Source: Przondovirus NAN33P2. Taken from it: a DNA stretch of 40,708 nucleotides. The notes beneath the pieces are model-generated. The model was not told the DNA's origin and searched no databases. It worked only from the letters and a program-made list of their open reading frames with translations. Of this stretch, positions 3,842 through 10,186 are shown one piece after another; the stretch's first letter is position 1; each line of letters opens with the position of its first letter. The translations under genes were made by a program, and so were the position numbers. The stretch lies in the sequence record OZ035820.1; one strand, 5' to 3'.

Positions 3842-4009
3842 GCACCACAGATTCACCGCTCTTTAACAATATGGATTAGTCAAAGCTGATATGTACACCA
3901 TGACATTAGTGTTTAACTAGTGGTTACATTCAGGTCTCTGGCAAGGTACGTCCTGTCACCCTGAGAGTAGCCACCTTGATAACCACTAATCAACTGAAGG
4001 ATATACATT

Positions 4010-5196: not shown

Positions 5197-6210
5197 ATGA
5201 ACTACACCGACATGCAAGAACGCTTAGACGTCATCCGCAACCTACCAATCTGTGAACTCGACAAGCGCCAGCCGCTGCTGGTAGCACTCATCGCTGACAT
5301 TGTGAACTATGAGACGTCCGACGGTGACGATACGGATAGCGATTGGGGTCTGGAACGTCAGGACTATTGGCAAACCCTGAAGATTAAGGCCAAAGACGCT
5401 GGGTTCAACCTACTAGGCAATGGTCACTTCAGCGCAGCGTTTAAGCACGAGCTGCTACCGGGTAGGGTCATTAAGGTTGGCTTTAAGAAAGAGGACTCAG
5501 GGGCCGCCTACGTGGCTTTCTGCCGGATGCACCAAGGTAGGGTAGGGATTCCTAACGTCTATCACGTAGCGCGTCACGCTGGCTGCTACACGGTGGTGCT
5601 AGACGAGCTTGAGCCTTGTCAACGCTTCGACAACGAGACGCACGAGCATTACGCAGACCTTGCTAACTACTTTGTGGAGAACTCTGGTGCAGAGCTGGGC
5701 GATGTTGACGGTGCAGAGAAGGAATTACACTTCGTCGAGACGTGCCAAATGATTAACAAGTTCTTCCACGGGATTGCATCCTTTGACATGCACAGCGGTA
5801 ACATTATGTTCACCAAAGACGGCAAGCCAGTAATAACCGACCCGGTGTCATTCTCGAAGGACCGCGAACGTGAGCCTTTCTCACTGGAACCTAATGTACT
5901 GATTGCAGAGATTGAGCAGATAGCGCACGACAAGATGATTGAACGCTGTAAGCGCAACAAGGCAAAGCGTGACCCGAACGGGGAGCTGCGCATCGCACGT
6001 CGTAAGGCAAATAAGGAGCGCAGAGCACGTCGTAAGGCACACGCTATGTGGCGTAAGGAGCGCGAACGGATTAACGCCGAGGCCCTAAAGGTTGACCTTG
6101 CGAAAGTCGAGGAGCGGGTACTGGCATGGCAGGTGGGACCCGGCCTAGCGATACAGCAGGGAAAGCCTTTACCTATCGATAACTATCTTCAGGGTAGACT
6201 CATGGGCTAA
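5197..6210 (+). CDS. gp0.7: Serine/threonine protein kinase (host shut-off), gene 0.7-like
   Basis: 337 aa; immediately upstream of gene 1; kinase-like N-terminal half and basic C-terminal tail (RRKANKERRARRKAH); assignment by position and size relative to T7/T3 gp0.7. Confidence 0.65.
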   Translation: MNYTDMQERLDVIRNLPICELDKRQPLLVALIADIVNYETSDGDDTDSDWGLERQDYWQTLKIKAKDAGFNLLGNGHFSAAFKHELLPGRVIKVGFKKEDSGAAYVAFCRMHQGRVGIPNVYHVARHAGCYTVVLDELEPCQRFDNETHEHYADLANYFVENSGAELGDVDGAEKELHFVETCQMINKFFHGIASFDMHSGNIMFTKDGKPVITDPVSFSKDREREPFSLEPNVLIAEIEQIAHDKMIERCKRNKAKRDPNGELRIARRKANKERRARRKAHAMWRKERERINAEALKVDLAKVEERVLAWQVGPGLAIQQGKPLPIDNYLQGRLMG

Positions 6211-6279
6211 CAAGGTGTATCTTCGGTGTCTCTGATACGAGGCACCCATAGATAAACTTTATCCACAAAGAGGCACACA

Positions 6280-9000
6280 ATGAACGCATTAAACATTGCA
6301 CGTAATGACTTCTCAGAGATTGAACTGGCCGCTATCCCGTATAATATCCTCAGCGAGCACTATGGGGACAAGCTGGCACGCGAGCAGCTGGCACTGGAGC
6401 ATGAAGCGTACGAGCTGGGCGAGCAGCGTTTCCTGAAGATGCTGGAACGTCAGGTGAAAGCTGGTGAGTTCGCTGACAACGTGGCTGCTAAGCCGCTGGT
6501 CCTAACGTTGCACCCGCAGCTGACCAAGCGTATTGACGACTGGAAGGAGGAGCAGGCAAACGCACGCGGTAAGAAACCTCGCGCATACTACCCGATTACG
6601 CACGGTGTGTCCTCAGAGTTGGCCCTCAGTATGGGCGCTGAGGTTCTCAAAGAGAAGCGTGGAGTGTCCAGTGAGGCAATCGCACTGCTCACCATTAAGG
6701 TGGTCTTAGGGACGCTCACAGACGCCGCAAAGGCCACAATCCAGCAGGTGTCCTCACAGTTAGGCAAGGCCCTTGAGGATGAGGCCCGCTTCGGTCGTAT
6801 CCGTGAGCAGGAAGCCGCATACTTCAAGAAGAACGTAGCGGACCAGCTGGACAAGCGCGTAGGCCACGTGTACAAGAAGGCTTTCATGCAGGTCGTCGAG
6901 GCCGATATGATATCCAAAGGGATGCTGGGCGGGGACAACTGGGCGAGCTGGAAAACTGACGAGCAGATGCACGTAGGGACCAAGCTGCTGGAGCTACTTA
7001 TCGAGGGAACTGGTCTGGTGGAAATGACCAAGAACAAGATGGCCGATGGCTCCGATGATGTGACCAGTATGCAGATGGTCCAGCTGGCTCCGGCCTTTGT
7101 GGAACTCCTGAGCAAGCGAGCGGGCGCACTCGCAGGTATCAGCCCGATGCACCAACCGTGCGTAGTCCCTCCGAAACCTTGGGTGGAGACCGTAGGCGGT
7201 GGCTACTGGTCAGTCGGTCGTCGCCCGCTGGCACTGGTTCGTACCCACTCCAAGAAGGCACTGCGCCGCTACGCAGACGTGCACATGCCAGAGGTATACA
7301 AAGCGGTAAACCTCGCGCAAAACACACCGTGGAAGGTGAACAAGAAGGTGTTGGCGGTAGTCAATGAGATTGTTAACTGGAAGCACTGCCCGGTGGCTGA
7401 CGTTCCAGCGATTGAACGTGAAGAGTTACCACCGCGCCCGGACGATATCGACACCAACGAGGTGGCACGTAAGGCATGGCGCAAGGAGGCCGCGGCGGTC
7501 TACCGTAAGGACAAGGCCCGCCAGTCTCGCCGTTTGTCGATGGAGTTCATGGTCGCACAGGCCAACAAGTTCGCTAACCACAAGGCCATCTGGTTCCCGT
7601 ATAACATGGACTGGCGCGGGCGTGTGTACGCTGTGAGCATGTTCAACCCGCAGGGTAACGACATGACCAAGGGTATGCTGACGCTGGCCAAGGGTAAGCC
7701 GATTGGTCTAGACGGGTTCTACTGGCTGAAGATTCATGGTGCAAACTGTGCAGGCGTCGACAAGGTTCCCTTCCCTGAGCGCATCAAGTTCATCGAAGAG
7801 AACGAGGGCAACATTCTGGCGAGTGCAGCTGACCCGCTGAATAACACTTGGTGGACACAGCAAGATTCACCGTTCTGCTTCTTAGCGTTCTGCTTCGAGT
7901 ACGCAGGCGTTAAACACCACGGCCTGAATTACAACTGCTCGCTGCCTCTGGCGTTCGATGGATCATGCTCTGGGATTCAGCACTTCAGCGCAATGCTCCG
8001 CGATTCCATCGGTGGCCGTGCGGTAAACCTGCTGCCATCTGATACCGTGCAGGATATCTACAAGATTGTGGCCGATAAGGTCAACGAGGTGCTCCAGCAG
8101 CACGCTGTCAACGGGTCTCAAACGGTGGTCGAGCAGATTGCCGACAAGGAGACTGGTGAGTTCCGCGAGAAGGTAACGCTGGGTGAGTCCGTACTTGCTG
8201 CGCAGTGGCTGCAATATGGTGTTACCCGCAAGGTGACTAAGCGTTCGGTAATGACGTTGGCGTATGGTTCCAAAGAGTTTGGCTTCCGCCAGCAAGTTCT
8301 TGAGGATACCATTCAGCCAGCTATTGACAACGGCGAGGGCTTGATGTTTACGCACCCTAACCAAGCGGCTGGCTATATGGCTAAGCTGATTTGGGACGCT
8401 GTGACCGTGACCGTAGTGGCCGCTGTCGAGGCAATGAATTGGCTGAAGTCTGCCGCTAAACTGCTGGCCGCTGAAGTCAAGGACAAGAAGACCAAAGAGG
8501 TGCTCCGTAAGCGCTGCGCAATCCACTGGGTAACACCAGACGGCTTCCCGGTGTGGCAGGAATACCACAAGCGAGATCAAGCGCGCCTGAAGCTGACGTT
8601 CTTGGGTCAGGCCAACGTGTTCATGACGTACAACAAAGGGGAAGCCAAAGAGATTGACGCACATAAGCAGGAGTCAGGAATCGCTCCTAACTTTGTGCAC
8701 TCACAGGATGGTAGTCACCTGCGCATGACCGTAGTGCACGCCAACGAGGTCTACGGGATTGACTCCTTCGCGCTCATTCATGACTCCTTCGGGACCATTC
8801 CAGCAGACGCTGGGAATCTCTTTAAGGCAGTCCGTGAGACGATGGTCAAGACCTACGAGGATAACGATGTAATCGCTGACTTTTATGACCAGTTCGCTGA
8901 CCAGCTGCACGAGTCTCAACTGGACAAAATGCCTGCTGTCCCGGCCAAAGGTGACCTGAATCTGCGCGATATCTTAGAGTCTGACTTCGCGTTCGCCTAA
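6280..9000 (+). CDS. gp1: Single-subunit DNA-dependent RNA polymerase
   Basis: 906 aa; collinear with recalled T7 RNAP (MN..NIA.NDFS.IELAAIP, RGKKP, PFCFLAFCFEYAG, HDSFGT, final FAFA); about 20 extra residues in the N-terminal domain; length equals my recollection for K11 RNAP. Confidence 0.95.
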   Translation: MNALNIARNDFSEIELAAIPYNILSEHYGDKLAREQLALEHEAYELGEQRFLKMLERQVKAGEFADNVAAKPLVLTLHPQLTKRIDDWKEEQANARGKKPRAYYPITHGVSSELALSMGAEVLKEKRGVSSEAIALLTIKVVLGTLTDAAKATIQQVSSQLGKALEDEARFGRIREQEAAYFKKNVADQLDKRVGHVYKKAFMQVVEADMISKGMLGGDNWASWKTDEQMHVGTKLLELLIEGTGLVEMTKNKMADGSDDVTSMQMVQLAPAFVELLSKRAGALAGISPMHQPCVVPPKPWVETVGGGYWSVGRRPLALVRTHSKKALRRYADVHMPEVYKAVNLAQNTPWKVNKKVLAVVNEIVNWKHCPVADVPAIEREELPPRPDDIDTNEVARKAWRKEAAAVYRKDKARQSRRLSMEFMVAQANKFANHKAIWFPYNMDWRGRVYAVSMFNPQGNDMTKGMLTLAKGKPIGLDGFYWLKIHGANCAGVDKVPFPERIKFIEENEGNILASAADPLNNTWWTQQDSPFCFLAFCFEYAGVKHHGLNYNCSLPLAFDGSCSGIQHFSAMLRDSIGGRAVNLLPSDTVQDIYKIVADKVNEVLQQHAVNGSQTVVEQIADKETGEFREKVTLGESVLAAQWLQYGVTRKVTKRSVMTLAYGSKEFGFRQQVLEDTIQPAIDNGEGLMFTHPNQAAGYMAKLIWDAVTVTVVAAVEAMNWLKSAAKLLAAEVKDKKTKEVLRKRCAIHWVTPDGFPVWQEYHKRDQARLKLTFLGQANVFMTYNKGEAKEIDAHKQESGIAPNFVHSQDGSHLRMTVVHANEVYGIDSFALIHDSFGTIPADAGNLFKAVRETMVKTYEDNDVIADFYDQFADQLHESQLDKMPAVPAKGDLNLRDILESDFAFA

Positions 9001-9010
9001 GGTCTCAGGC

Positions 9011-9033
9011 AATTAGGTAGCACTATAGGGAAC
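9011..9033 (+). promoter_or_regulatory. Phage RNAP promoter (phi1.1A-like)
   Basis: AATTAGGTAGCACTATAGGGAAC immediately after gene 1. Confidence 0.7.
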
Positions 9034-9098
9034 CTTCGAATGGCCGAGGGTTCCATTACTTAAAGTCTTAACTTAAAGAATACTTAAAGAGGCACACC

Positions 9099-9662
9099 AT
9101 GACTTACTCAATCGTTGTAACCATCTTGTTAATCGTATTAATCATCCTGTTAGTAAGGGCCGTCACACGACTCGGTGCCTGCGAGTACGCCCTTGAGAAG
9201 CAAGCCAAGAGCAACGAGGAGTACACAGAAGGCTTGCACGATAAGGTCTACCGCCTGTTTGCCGATAAGGTATCACTCAATAAGCAGGTGCGGTGGTTAG
9301 AGAGCGAGCTTGAACACGAGAAGCAGAAGGTACGCGATGTGAACGAACTACGGGAACACCAGCGGGGCCGCATGAAGTTCCTCCGCAAGTCCCTCAAGGA
9401 AGCACAAGATGAGCTGATGATGGTCTCAGGCCTGATTCACGTTAAGTTCACCGCTGTGTTACCAGACGGTACCCACTCCAAGACGCTCTTTAAGCTAGGG
9501 CTTGGCCCGTGTGGTCTCCACGTTAAGTCCCTCCGATGGACAGAGCTGGAGGACCGCTACCTGATAGACCAGCTGTGCACCAATGGCGAGCGTAAGCAGT
9601 TCGTCTACTACAAGAGCGAAGTAGTAGGACGCATCGAGTTCCGTCACGGTAAGTCTGAATAA
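9099..9662 (+). CDS. Hypothetical membrane-anchored coiled-coil protein (no T7 counterpart recognised)
   Basis: 187-aa ORF with AAGAGG RBS; N-terminal TM helix (IVVTILLIVLIILLV), central charged coiled-coil-like region, about 70-aa C-terminal domain; sits between gene 1 and gene 1.1 and is bracketed by two phage promoters. Confidence 0.6.
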   Translation: MTYSIVVTILLIVLIILLVRAVTRLGACEYALEKQAKSNEEYTEGLHDKVYRLFADKVSLNKQVRWLESELEHEKQKVRDVNELREHQRGRMKFLRKSLKEAQDELMMVSGLIHVKFTAVLPDGTHSKTLFKLGLGPCGLHVKSLRWTELEDRYLIDQLCTNGERKQFVYYKSEVVGRIEFRHGKSE

Positions 9663-9680
9663 GGTAGCACTATAGGAACA
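9658..9680 (+). promoter_or_regulatory. Phage RNAP promoter variant (phi1.1B-like)
   Basis: AATAAGGTAGCACTATAGGAACA; weaker variant overlapping the stop of the 187-aa ORF. Confidence 0.5.
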
Positions 9681-9712: not shown

Positions 9713-9745
9713 ATGTCCCTTACTATCACAATCAGGAGCAACACC

Positions 9746-9925
9746 ATGTATCAGAACACCATCAACTTCGAGCGCAACCGTGAACGTCAGCAGACCGAGG
9801 GCTATATCCCTAAGGGCCGCAAGTTGAACAAGACAAAGCGCGGAGGCGGTGTGAAAGGTTCTTTCCGTAACGCCAAGGGTGACAGTGTTGTTAACCAAGA
9901 GAAATACTTCGTAGGGGGGGCGTAA
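9746..9925 (+). CDS. gp1.1: Gene 1.1 protein (small basic protein)
   Basis: 59 aa from ATG after AGGAG; contains GRKLNKTKR as in recalled T7 gp1.1. Confidence 0.7.
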   Translation: MYQNTINFERNRERQQTEGYIPKGRKLNKTKRGGGVKGSFRNAKGDSVVNQEKYFVGGA

Positions 9926-9928
9926 CAA

Positions 9929-10186
9929 ATGGCTACTGAAAAAAGATGGCTTTTCGATGGGAGCACCTCACAATGGTCTCGTTTAGGGGCAGCGGAGAGT
10001 AGACTACTGGATACGACAGGCCTGCACGTGGTCATGCTTGACGACCCATTCACTAACACAGTGCTGTTCAACGTGTTCGAGCAACGCGGGTCACTTCTAA
10101 TAAGTAAGCGGTTCAGCCACTGGTCGATTGACTCAGCGTCAGACTGGCTGGCAAAACTCACAGCTGACTACTCAAGTTGGAAATGA
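9929..10186 (+). CDS. gp1.2: Gene 1.2 protein (inhibitor of host dGTP triphosphohydrolase)
   Basis: 85 aa, same length as T7 gp1.2 and ending ...SWK (T7 ...DWK); position between 1.1 and ligase. Confidence 0.65.
   Translation: MATEKRWLFDGSTSQWSRLGAAESRLLDTTGLHVVMLDDPFTNTVLFNVFEQRGSLLISKRFSHWSIDSASDWLAKLTADYSSWK

What the first reader, a model, noticed from the sequence alone, without database searches (positions are those of the whole stretch)
9099..9662. Unassigned 187-aa membrane-anchored coiled-coil gene between RNA polymerase and gene 1.1
T7 has only promoters and the primary replication origin between gene 1 and gene 1.1. Here that interval holds a well-formed ORF with an RBS, one N-terminal TM helix, a charged coiled-coil segment and a compact C-terminal domain, bracketed by two phage promoters (9011-9033 and 9658-9680), so it would be expressed early from the RNAP-driven class II region. 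I recognise no homologue. Its architecture and timing fit a membrane-tethered host-takeover, superinfection-exclusion or anti-defence factor.
Basis: partly seen in the sequence, partly recalled or inferred. Interest (0 to 1): 0.75.

Follow-up and report, generated by a model that had tools for sequence, protein, structure and literature searches.

The report
Phage gene 1.05, membrane-anchored form
The ORF is real and clearly functional, but it is the already-annotated gene 1.05 of T3/K11-type phages: a dispensable early protein of unknown function that holds a small conserved domain on a coiled-coil stalk at the cytoplasmic face of the inner membrane.

Summary
ORF 9099-9662 (+, 187 aa) has a good RBS, an N-terminal TM helix, an unbroken heptad coiled coil, a compact six-stranded beta domain and a phage promoter on each side. 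The claim of no homologue does not hold. The window is a Przondovirus (K11/KP32-like Klebsiella phage), and K11 annotates the same slot as "gp1.05 fusion protein" between promoters phi1.05 and phi1.1. Residues 113-182 match Pfam PF25755 (Phage_T3_1_05) at 92 bits against a cutoff of 27, and the exact protein is already in NCBI.

The family comprises 342 clusters at 50% identity, all small proteins, found almost only in T7-like phages. It is modular: domain alone (T3), coiled coil plus domain, or TM plus coiled coil plus domain. In Przondovirus the domain is under strong purifying selection (dN/dS about 0.04). Residues 13-87 are a mosaic of old recombining alleles (dS about 1.1), a signature shared locally only with gp1.2. 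A few relatives carry broken copies, so the gene is dispensable.

No function is known, and Foldseek finds no solved structural relative. My best inference is a membrane-tethered, cytoplasm-facing binder of a host (or phage) protein. Existence: already known. Function: open.

The parts
9011..9033 (+). Phage RNAP promoter phi1.05
   Evidence: Exact match to the window's 18-nt promoter consensus at 9014-9031. There are 13 copies, all on the + strand, against 0.03 expected. K11 annotates promoter phi1.05 at the same position.
9029..9054 (+). Predicted 5' leader hairpin at the start of the phi1.05 transcript
   Evidence: An 8-10 bp stem, GGAACCUUCG/CGAGGGUUCC. On its own it is not significant (z = -1.36). 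However, hairpin-forming sequences with different bases occupy the same place in Kvp1, LPST153 and T3.
9050..9150 (.). AT-rich trough (32-36% GC), an origin-like region that overlaps the 5' end of the gene
   Evidence: Composition profile. T3 annotates its primary replication origin in the equivalent position, downstream of phi1.05 and overlapping the gene 1.05 start. Origin function here is inferred by analogy only.
9058..9089 (+). Three direct ACTTAAAG repeats (9058, 9071, 9082) in the leader
   Evidence: Present in 41 of 45 Przondovirus loci. Analogous ACTTTAAG repeats occur in Kvp1, LPST153, phiEap-1 and T3.
9086..9092 (+). Ribosome-binding site AAAGAGG, 6 nt before the ATG
   Evidence: Read directly from the sequence.
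9099..9662 (+). Gene 1.05 (187 aa plus stop), long TM-coiled-coil-domain form
   Evidence: ORF. PHROG 6440 matches full length at E = 5.5e-90. K11 gp1.05 is syntenic. The exact protein is in NCBI.
9108..9164 (+). N-terminal transmembrane anchor (residues 4-22)
   Evidence: Kyte-Doolittle 3.07. No charged residue precedes it and R20 and R24 follow it. TM-bearing homologues from other genera show the same charge pattern.
9135..9359 (+). Hypervariable mosaic segment (residues 13-87)
   Evidence: 6-10 allele classes per sub-segment, in 20 combinations among 45 genes. dS is 1.12 with 154 saturated pairs, and dN/dS is 0.26-0.36. The wider N-terminal half (residues 1-107) has median identity 61% against 96% for the C-domain.
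9171..9419 (+). Continuous heptad coiled coil (residues 25-107); the last 20 residues are conserved and basic
   Evidence: AlphaFold2 helix over residues 2-109 at pLDDT above 90. Heptad test. Residues 88-107 have dN/dS 0.11-0.13 and net charge +3.
9420..9659 (+). C-terminal beta domain (residues 108-187), Pfam PF25755 Phage_T3_1_05
   Evidence: Pfam E = 2.1e-26, 92.1 bits against cutoff 27, residues 113-182. Six-strand model with pLDDT 88.6. dN/dS is 0.03-0.05. Invariant motif GxGxCG...V...Q...K.F with nearly invariant Y and GR.
9658..9680 (+). Phage RNAP promoter phi1.1, overlapping the stop codon of gene 1.05
   Evidence: Consensus match at 9661-9678 with 1 mismatch. K11 and T3 annotate phi1.1 at the same place.

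Best explanation
This is gene 1.05 of the T3/K11 type of T7-like phage, in its long form.

Shown:
- It is the first gene transcribed from the phage promoter phi1.05.
- It sits just downstream of a conserved AT-rich, origin-like leader.
- It encodes a 21.8-kDa protein with an N-terminal TM helix, an unbroken stalk of about 83 residues with heptad periodicity, and a six-stranded beta domain (PF25755).
- The domain is the conserved, strongly selected module. The stalk is a recombining mosaic that keeps its length and heptad phase.
- The gene is dispensable.

Inferred:
- The protein inserts N-out/C-in, so the stalk and domain are cytoplasmic.
- The stalk oligomerises.
- The domain is a protein-binding effector that captures or sequesters a conserved partner close to the inner membrane early in infection. 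That partner is most likely a host protein, possibly a host defence component. This would make it an accessory host-interference factor like its neighbour gp1.2.

My estimates: identity as gene 1.05 about 0.97, cytoplasmic orientation about 0.75, host-protein-binding effector role about 0.4-0.45.
For: Identity:
- Pfam PF25755 scores 92 bits against a cutoff of 27.
- PHROG 6440 matches full length.
- K11 has the syntenic 'gp1.05 fusion protein' between phi1.05 and phi1.1.
- 429 phage records hold a homologue.
- The exact protein is in NCBI.

Coding and function:
- Domain dN/dS is 0.03-0.05, the same as RNAP.

Cytoplasmic orientation:
- No charge precedes the TM and K/R residues follow it in every TM-bearing form.
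- 77 of 165 family representatives are domain-only and 34 have a coiled coil without a TM; the examples inspected have no signal peptide.

Accessory status:
- Disrupted copies occur in L061, L047, L048 and Pectobacterium Q19.
- From my own knowledge, T7 lacks the gene.

Host-interface signature:
- The stalk has dS 1.12 and shuffled allele classes. Within this region only gp1.2, a known host dGTPase inhibitor, shows the same signature (dS 1.10). RNAP, gp1.1 and ligase have dS 0.34-0.41.

Protein binder rather than enzyme or DNA binder:
- The domain is about 75 aa, with no Pfam, NCBIfam or PADLOC match to an enzyme.
- Domain pI varies from 4.1 to 9.9 across the family.

Accessory-slot context in distant elements:
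- In two sphingomonad genome loci the domain lies between DNA pol A and the 5'-3' exonuclease.
Against: There are no experimental data on any family member in the searchable literature. No structural or sequence relative of known function exists: Foldseek against PDB gives a best E of 0.14, and BFVD returns only uncharacterised T7-like phage proteins. The partner is unknown. Topology rests on the positive-inside rule, not on measurement. Stalk mosaicism could simply reflect weak sequence constraint on a spacer combined with frequent recombination. The broken copies come from assemblies and could include sequencing errors.
Confidence: 0.55

Rival explanations
1. Replication organiser. Like phi29 p16.7, gp1.05 would anchor replicating phage DNA or the replisome to the membrane. 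It would be made in cis from the transcript that activates the adjacent origin.
For: It has the same three-part architecture as p16.7, which organises membrane-associated phi29 DNA replication (PMC11476376). The gene starts inside the AT-rich, origin-like region, and T3 annotates its primary origin overlapping the gene 1.05 start. A conserved basic segment (residues 88-107, net +3) precedes the domain. In sphingomonad elements the domain sits between the DNA polymerase and the exonuclease.
Against: There is no sequence or fold similarity to p16.7. Domain charge is not conserved: pI ranges 4.1-9.9 and 34% of members are acidic. About two-thirds of family representatives lack a TM, so they cannot anchor anything through one. 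Broken copies occur in otherwise intact genomes. From my own knowledge, T7 replicates without the gene. A hypervariable stalk is not expected for a housekeeping organiser.
Confidence: 0.15
2. Superinfection exclusion or another membrane-acting function. The anchor itself would be the business end, blocking DNA entry by later phages or altering the envelope.
For: It is an early-expressed bitopic membrane protein. The first 12 residues of the TM segment are conserved. It is dispensable and varies between related phages.
Against: The conserved, selected part is the C-terminal domain, not the membrane segment (TM dN/dS 0.52 against 0.04 for the domain). The domain is predicted to be cytoplasmic. 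Most family members have no TM. Only three residues would be exposed to the periplasm.
Confidence: 0.1
3. Phage-internal regulator. The domain would bind a phage protein, for example RNAP or a class II enzyme, and the membrane tether would control its timing or location.
For: The domain is as conserved as RNAP and gp1.1. That fits a conserved phage partner as well as it fits a conserved host one. The gene lies directly next to gene 1.
Against: Its patchy, dispensable distribution among phages that share the same core proteins argues against a core regulatory role. In sphingomonad elements its context is different, with no adjacent RNAP.
Confidence: 0.1
4. Not a functional protein. The reading frame would be a by-product of sequence kept for the origin and promoters.
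For: The 5' end overlaps an AT-rich, origin-like region. Some relatives carry frameshifts.
Against: Domain dN/dS is 0.03-0.05 over 78 codons. 45 of 47 fetched IMG/VR Przondovirus loci keep an intact 186-187 codon frame. The heptad phase is preserved in all 45 alleles. The family has 342 clusters at 50% identity across many host genera.
Confidence: 0.02

Closest known systems
Klebsiella phage K11 gp1.05 'fusion protein' (YP_002003794) and KP32 'Fusion protein' (D1L2T8)
   Same: Same gene, same slot between gene 1 and gene 1.1, same flanking promoters phi1.05 and phi1.1, and the same 186-187 aa TM-coiled-coil-domain layout. The C-domain is about 89-96% identical.
   Different: K11 carries a different allele of residues about 13-48, so tblastn aligns only residues 49-185. 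Neither protein has an assigned function.
Phage T3 gene 1.05 protein (NP_523302), Pfam PF25755 Phage_T3_1_05
   Same: Homologous beta domain carrying the FKLGLGPCG...Q...K.F.Y...GR motif. Same position after phi1.05 and next to or overlapping the origin region.
   Different: The T3 protein is only 90 aa. It has no TM helix and no coiled coil, only a short amphipathic basic N-terminus (muH 0.75). Domain identity is about 38%.
Phage phi29 p16.7 (membrane-associated replication organiser)
   Same: Works-like comparison only. It is an early membrane protein that organises membrane-associated viral DNA replication (PMC11476376). From my own knowledge it has an N-terminal TM, a coiled coil and a small C-terminal functional domain, and it is non-essential.
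   Different: No sequence or fold similarity. From my own knowledge the p16.7 domain is helical and binds DNA, whereas this domain is all-beta. Charge is not conserved across the 1.05 family.
T7/T3 gp1.2 (host dGTPase inhibitor and F-exclusion target), the neighbouring gene
   Same: It is a small accessory class II protein in the same promoter-delimited block. In Przondovirus it shows the same old-allele mosaic signature (dS 1.10) as the gp1.05 stalk.
   Different: Unrelated sequence and soluble. In gp1.2 the whole protein varies, whereas in gp1.05 only the stalk does.
E. coli ZipA (own knowledge, not tested)
   Same: A bitopic N-out/C-in anchor, a long linker and a small C-terminal protein-binding domain that recruits a cytoplasmic partner to the membrane. 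It is a useful analogy for how such an architecture works.
   Different: No homology was detected in any search. The ZipA linker is unstructured and P/Q-rich rather than a coiled coil.

Membership tests
Pfam PF25755 (Phage_T3_1_05) / gene 1.05 family | HMM score above the curated gathering threshold | tested here: met
   92.1 bits against cutoff 27, E = 2.1e-26, residues 113-182 covering profile positions 3-72 of 73.
Pfam PF25755 (Phage_T3_1_05) / gene 1.05 family | Conserved motif F-x-L-G-x-G-x-C-G-x-x-V ... Q ... K-x-F-x-Y ... G-R | tested here: met
   All of these residues are present: F131, G134, G136, C138, G139, V142, Q158, K166, F168, Y170, G177, R178. They are invariant or nearly invariant in alignments spanning 28-60% identity.
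Pfam PF25755 (Phage_T3_1_05) / gene 1.05 family | Genomic slot: first gene after the phage RNAP gene, flanked by promoters phi1.05 and phi1.1 | tested here: met
   The RNAP gene ends at 9000. Promoters lie at 9014-9031 and 9661-9678. K11, T3 and Kvp1 are annotated with the same layout.
K11/KP32-type long form ('fusion protein', PHROG 6440) | Full-length match, 186-187 aa, TM plus coiled coil plus domain | tested here: met
   PHROG 6440 E = 5.5e-90 over residues 1-185 of a 186-position profile. 45 Przondovirus genes are all 186 or 187 codons.
phi29 p16.7-type replication organiser | Sequence or fold homology of the C-terminal domain to p16.7 (PDB 1zae, 2bnk, 2c5r) | tested here: not met
   No p16.7 chain appears in the phmmer search of PDB at E up to 10, nor among the 50 best matches listed by Foldseek against PDB.
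phi29 p16.7-type replication organiser | DNA binding and membrane localisation of replicating phage DNA | not testable with these tools
   This needs biochemistry and microscopy. As an indirect indication, domain pI is not conserved across the family (4.1-9.9).
i-spanin (Rz-like) | N-in/C-out anchor with a periplasmic coiled coil, encoded in the late lysis cassette with a partner o-spanin | tested here: not met
   The gene lies in the early class II region. The charge distribution predicts C-in. There is only a chance-level PHROG hit to a lysis family (E = 0.02).
Known defence or anti-defence families (PADLOC-DB) | Significant HMM match | tested here: not met
   The best hit is ZorB/MotB at E = 8.4e-4 and 17 bits. 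It covers only the TM plus helix (residues 5-100), which looks like a compositional match.
Secreted protein or lipoprotein | Signal peptide with a positively charged n-region, or a lipobox with a conserved Cys | tested here: not met
   No charged residue precedes the hydrophobic stretch. Arginines follow it. C28 is not conserved among alleles.

The most novel reading that the evidence does not exclude
The PF25755 domain may be a previously unrecognised fold that neutralises a conserved, membrane-proximal host immunity or physiology factor. The recombining hypervariable stalk would then reflect escape from host sensors that recognise gp1.05, much as PifA recognises the neighbouring gp1.2. This would define a new, widespread anti-defence or host-takeover family in T7-like phages.
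Probability: 0.2. Interest if true: 0.6.

Novelty: already known. Interest (0 to 1): 0.25.

Why it matters
As a discovery of a new gene it does not matter: the gene has been annotated since the T3 and K11 genomes, has a Pfam family, and this exact protein is in NCBI. The open point is function. Gene 1.05 is a widespread accessory gene of T7-like phages (342 clusters at 50% identity) with no assigned role and no solved structural relative. Klebsiella Przondovirus phages are candidates for phage therapy. A strongly conserved effector domain on a recombining stalk, evolving like the known host-interacting gp1.2, makes it a reasonable candidate for host-range or counter-defence studies.

Tried and rejected
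1. The first AlphaFold2 run, on a Przondovirus-only alignment, gave a confident helix but an unusable C-domain (pLDDT below 50). A diverse alignment fixed this.
3. A word-indexed search with the C-domain alone returned only truncated Przondovirus variants.
4. I tested whether all TM-less homologues carry an amphipathic membrane-targeting helix. This holds only for the T3 and P1723 types (muH 0.69-0.75, z 1.2-2.0). The median z overall is 0.2, so I rejected it as a general feature.
5. I tested whether the domain is uniformly basic, as expected for a nucleic-acid binder. It is not (pI 4.1-9.9).
6. I looked for the N-terminal module elsewhere, alone or joined to another domain. It was found only in Przondovirus gene 1.05, so 'fusion' is a descriptive label and no demonstrable fusion partner was found.
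7. I tested for recent positive selection on the stalk. dN/dS is 0.26-0.36 with saturated dS, which indicates old recombining alleles instead.
8. Literature searches for gp1.05, gene 1.05, PF25755 and protein accessions found only genome-announcement tables. The phiYeO3-12 genome and non-essential-gene papers are not held. Two broader searches were unproductive.
9. No additional Pfam or NCBIfam domains appear in the longer family members.

Full report

Yes. The window contains an ATG-initiated ORF at 9099-9662 on the + strand, encoding 187 aa. An AAAGAGG ribosome-binding site sits six bases upstream. Residues 4-22 form a strongly hydrophobic segment with Kyte-Doolittle mean 3.07 over 19 residues.

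AlphaFold2 models residues 2-109 as a single helix at pLDDT above 90. In residues 25-107, heptad a/d positions are 71% hydrophobic, against 47% in composition-matched shuffles, and none of 2000 shuffles reaches that value. With a sufficiently diverse alignment, the C-terminal 80 residues fold into a six-stranded all-beta domain with mean pLDDT 88.6 and pTM 0.74.

The phage promoter consensus occurs 13 times in the window, always on the + strand, against 0.03 expected by chance. Two copies bracket the ORF, at 9014-9031 and 9661-9678.

**2. What is it?**

The window is a Przondovirus, a K11/KP32-like Klebsiella phage. The best DNA match is vB_KpnP_71Y at 96% identity. tblastn finds homologues of the ORF in 429 phage records.

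The curated K11 record annotates the syntenic gene as '1.05: gp1.05 fusion protein', flanked by promoters phi1.05 and phi1.1. Residues 113-182 match Pfam PF25755, 'Enterobacteria phage T3 gene 1.05 protein', at 92.1 bits against a cutoff of 27. PHROG 6440, of unknown function, matches the full length. The identical protein is already in NCBI on a 40.7-kb contig.

So the ORF is neither unassigned nor without homologues. It is gene 1.05, a named gene whose function is unknown.

The T3 record has promoter phi1.05, then an annotated primary origin of replication (5682-5758), and gene 1.05 starts inside that origin. The window has the same arrangement:
- an AT-rich trough of 32-36% GC at about 9050-9150, spanning the leader and the TM-coding 5' end of the gene;
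- a conserved leader consisting of a hairpin and three ACTTAAAG repeats.

That leader is present in 41 of 45 related loci, and ACTTTAAG equivalents occur in Kvp1, LPST153, phiEap-1 and T3. Origin function in this phage is an inference by analogy.

**3. Anatomy of the family**

An exhaustive profile search of 1.84 billion representative proteins finds 342 clusters with E at or below 0.001. All members are 59-242 aa, and the domain is always C-terminal or makes up the whole protein.

Among 165 representatives the architectures are:
- 77 domain-only, like T3 (90 aa), P1723 (92 aa) and JA10 (81 aa);
- 51 with an N-terminal TM helix;
- 34 with a coiled-coil extension but no TM.

The TM plus coiled-coil plus domain layout also occurs in Kvp1, LPST153, phiEap-1, JELG-KS1 and Keithstache. 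The full-length tblastn hits to Kvp1 and PZJ0206 extend into the coiled coil. The layout is therefore shared across genera and is not a K11-specific fusion.

The Przondovirus N-terminal module itself is found nowhere else, neither alone nor joined to another domain. No additional Pfam or NCBIfam domains appear in the longer members.

Foldseek finds no significant match in the PDB (best E = 0.14). In BFVD it matches only uncharacterised proteins of T7-like phages infecting Klebsiella, Pectobacterium, Salmonella, Dickeya, Escherichia, Pseudomonas, Ralstonia, Providencia, Aeromonas and Delftia.

A scan of 185,579 species genomes gave three hits:
- a 549-bp scaffold that is probably phage contamination;
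- two sphingomonad loci where the domain lies between a family-A DNA polymerase and a 5'-3' exonuclease, followed by nucleotide-metabolism genes.

**4. Evolutionary signature**

Across 45 intact Przondovirus genes, the results by region are:

| Region | dN/dS | dS | Note |
|---|---|---|---|
| C-domain (108-185) | 0.03-0.05 | 0.35 | same as RNAP C-terminus and gp1.1 |
| Stalk, residues 23-87 | 0.26-0.36 | 1.12 | 154 pairs saturated |
| Conserved stalk end (88-107) | 0.11-0.13 | 0.40 | |
| TM (1-22) | 0.52 | 0.45 | |

The stalk is therefore still constrained, but it is built from old, divergent alleles rather than from recent adaptive substitutions.

At 75% identity there are 10, 6 and 7 allele classes for residues 13-30, 31-50 and 51-87. 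They occur in 20 combinations among 45 genes, which shows recombinational shuffling. Length stays at 186-187 residues, the heptad register is unchanged and no allele contains a proline.

Among the neighbouring genes, only gp1.2, annotated as the host dGTPase inhibitor and F-exclusion target, shows a comparable dS of 1.10. RNAP, gp1.1 and ligase have dS of 0.34-0.41.

The gene is dispensable, because several relatives carry broken copies:
- L061 has a 2-bp deletion that splits it into 72-aa and 106-aa ORFs (the 106-aa product belongs to a cluster of 27 sequences);
- L047 has a frameshift inside the domain;
- L048 has an internal deletion of about 72 codons;
- Pectobacterium Q19 has an in-frame stop between the two halves.

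Some of these could be assembly errors.

**5. How it most likely works**

Shown: early class II expression signals; a TM anchor, a heptad stalk and a beta domain; the domain as the selected module; a mosaic stalk; dispensability.

Inferred: the protein inserts N-out/C-in. Nothing charged precedes the TM, K/R residues follow it in every TM-bearing variant, and the TM-less homologues examined have no signal peptide, so they must act in the cytoplasm. A stalk of about 83 residues would then hold the domain some 12 nm from the membrane and probably oligomerises.

The domain is small, has no enzyme-family match, and its charge is not conserved across the family (pI 4.1-9.9). A protein-binding role is therefore more likely than catalysis or general nucleic-acid binding. 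Taken with its accessory status and a stalk that evolves like gp1.2, I favour a membrane-tethered binder of a conserved host protein, meaning a host-takeover or counter-defence factor. I put the probability at about 0.4-0.45.

Rival explanations:
- a phi29 p16.7-like replication organiser, which shares the architecture and the position at the origin but has no homology, lacks a conserved charge, and cannot explain the many anchor-less homologues (about 0.15);
- superinfection exclusion or another membrane-acting role (about 0.1);
- a phage-internal regulator (about 0.1);
- a non-functional frame, which the selection data exclude (about 0.02).

**6. Comparison with known systems, and novelty**

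It is a member of the gene 1.05 / PF25755 family. Score, motif, synteny and full-length PHROG match were all tested and met.

It is not a member of the p16.7 family, the spanins, any PADLOC family, or the lipoproteins. The defining features of each were tested and not met.

The searchable literature mentions gene 1.05 only in annotation tables, and once as a region of dissimilarity between related phages.

**7. Verdict**

The gene is already known; its function is not. Interest is modest. The useful new points are descriptive: the modular architecture of the family, the predicted cytoplasmic orientation, the contrast between a conserved domain and a recombining stalk, and dispensability.

Noticed in passing
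window 9029-9092; also L049 243-320, L050 528-613, L055 455-545, L056 235-395: The leader between phi1.05 and gene 1.05 is conserved. It has a 5' hairpin followed by three ACTTAAAG repeats that run into the RBS. Other genera have ACTTTAAG repeats in the same place. From memory this resembles the TTAACTTTAAG translational-enhancer element of the T7 gene 10 leader. ACTTAAAG also follows other promoters in the window (2714, 21018, 21029, 29078). It could be an origin element, a translation enhancer, or both.
   Followed up: partly
window 9929-10186 (gp1.2, dGTPase inhibitor homologue): gp1.2 is as mosaic as the gp1.05 stalk among Przondovirus relatives: 57-98% amino-acid identity, dN 0.19, dS 1.10. 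The gp1.1 gene between them is 96.6% conserved.
   Followed up: partly
L005, L007-L012 positions about 3910-3930, compared with window 9011-9033: Closely related Przondovirus genomes differ in the promoter specificity region at phi1.05. The variants are TTAGGTAGCACTATAGGGA (this window), TTAGGGCACACTATAGGGA (K11-like) and TTAGGACACACTATAGGGA. This suggests promoter and RNAP specificity variants within the genus.
   Followed up: no
L064 5875-6162 (Sphingomonas desiccabilis, 1.76-Mb contig) and L063 about 6001-6237 (Sphingobium sp.): PF25755-domain proteins occur in sphingomonad genomes, between a family-A DNA polymerase and a 5'-3' exonuclease, with dNMP kinase, nucleotidase and dGTP diphosphohydrolase-like genes nearby. 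This looks like the replication module of an integrated or co-assembled T7-like element.
   Followed up: partly
L062 (Flammeovirga aprica JL-4 scaffold419, 549 bp): A 549-bp scaffold in a Bacteroidota genome assembly encodes the gp1.05 domain at 98% identity to the Klebsiella-phage query. This is almost certainly phage contamination of the assembly.
   Followed up: no
L052 560-1140 (Pectobacterium phage Q19); L061 1263-1821; L047; L048: These are split or broken gene 1.05 copies. Q19 has an in-frame stop between the TM-coiled-coil half and the domain. L061 has a 2-bp deletion. L047 has a frameshift in the domain. L048 has an internal deletion of about 72 codons. Whether the domain is still expressed from an internal start is unknown.
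   Followed up: partly
window 9713-9925 versus 9746-9925: The mechanical ORF for gene 1.1 starts at 9713 (70 aa). From K11's 58-aa gp1.1 I placed the start at MYQNT, 9746 in the window, but I did not align the two. The longer call is therefore probably an over-extension.
   Followed up: no
phage record OR786095.1 ('Staphylococcus phage MBBL139'), 6388-6561: A 40-kb record labelled as a Staphylococcus aureus phage carries a gene 1.05 domain at the typical post-RNAP coordinate of an enterobacterial T7-like genome. The host label looks doubtful.
   Followed up: no
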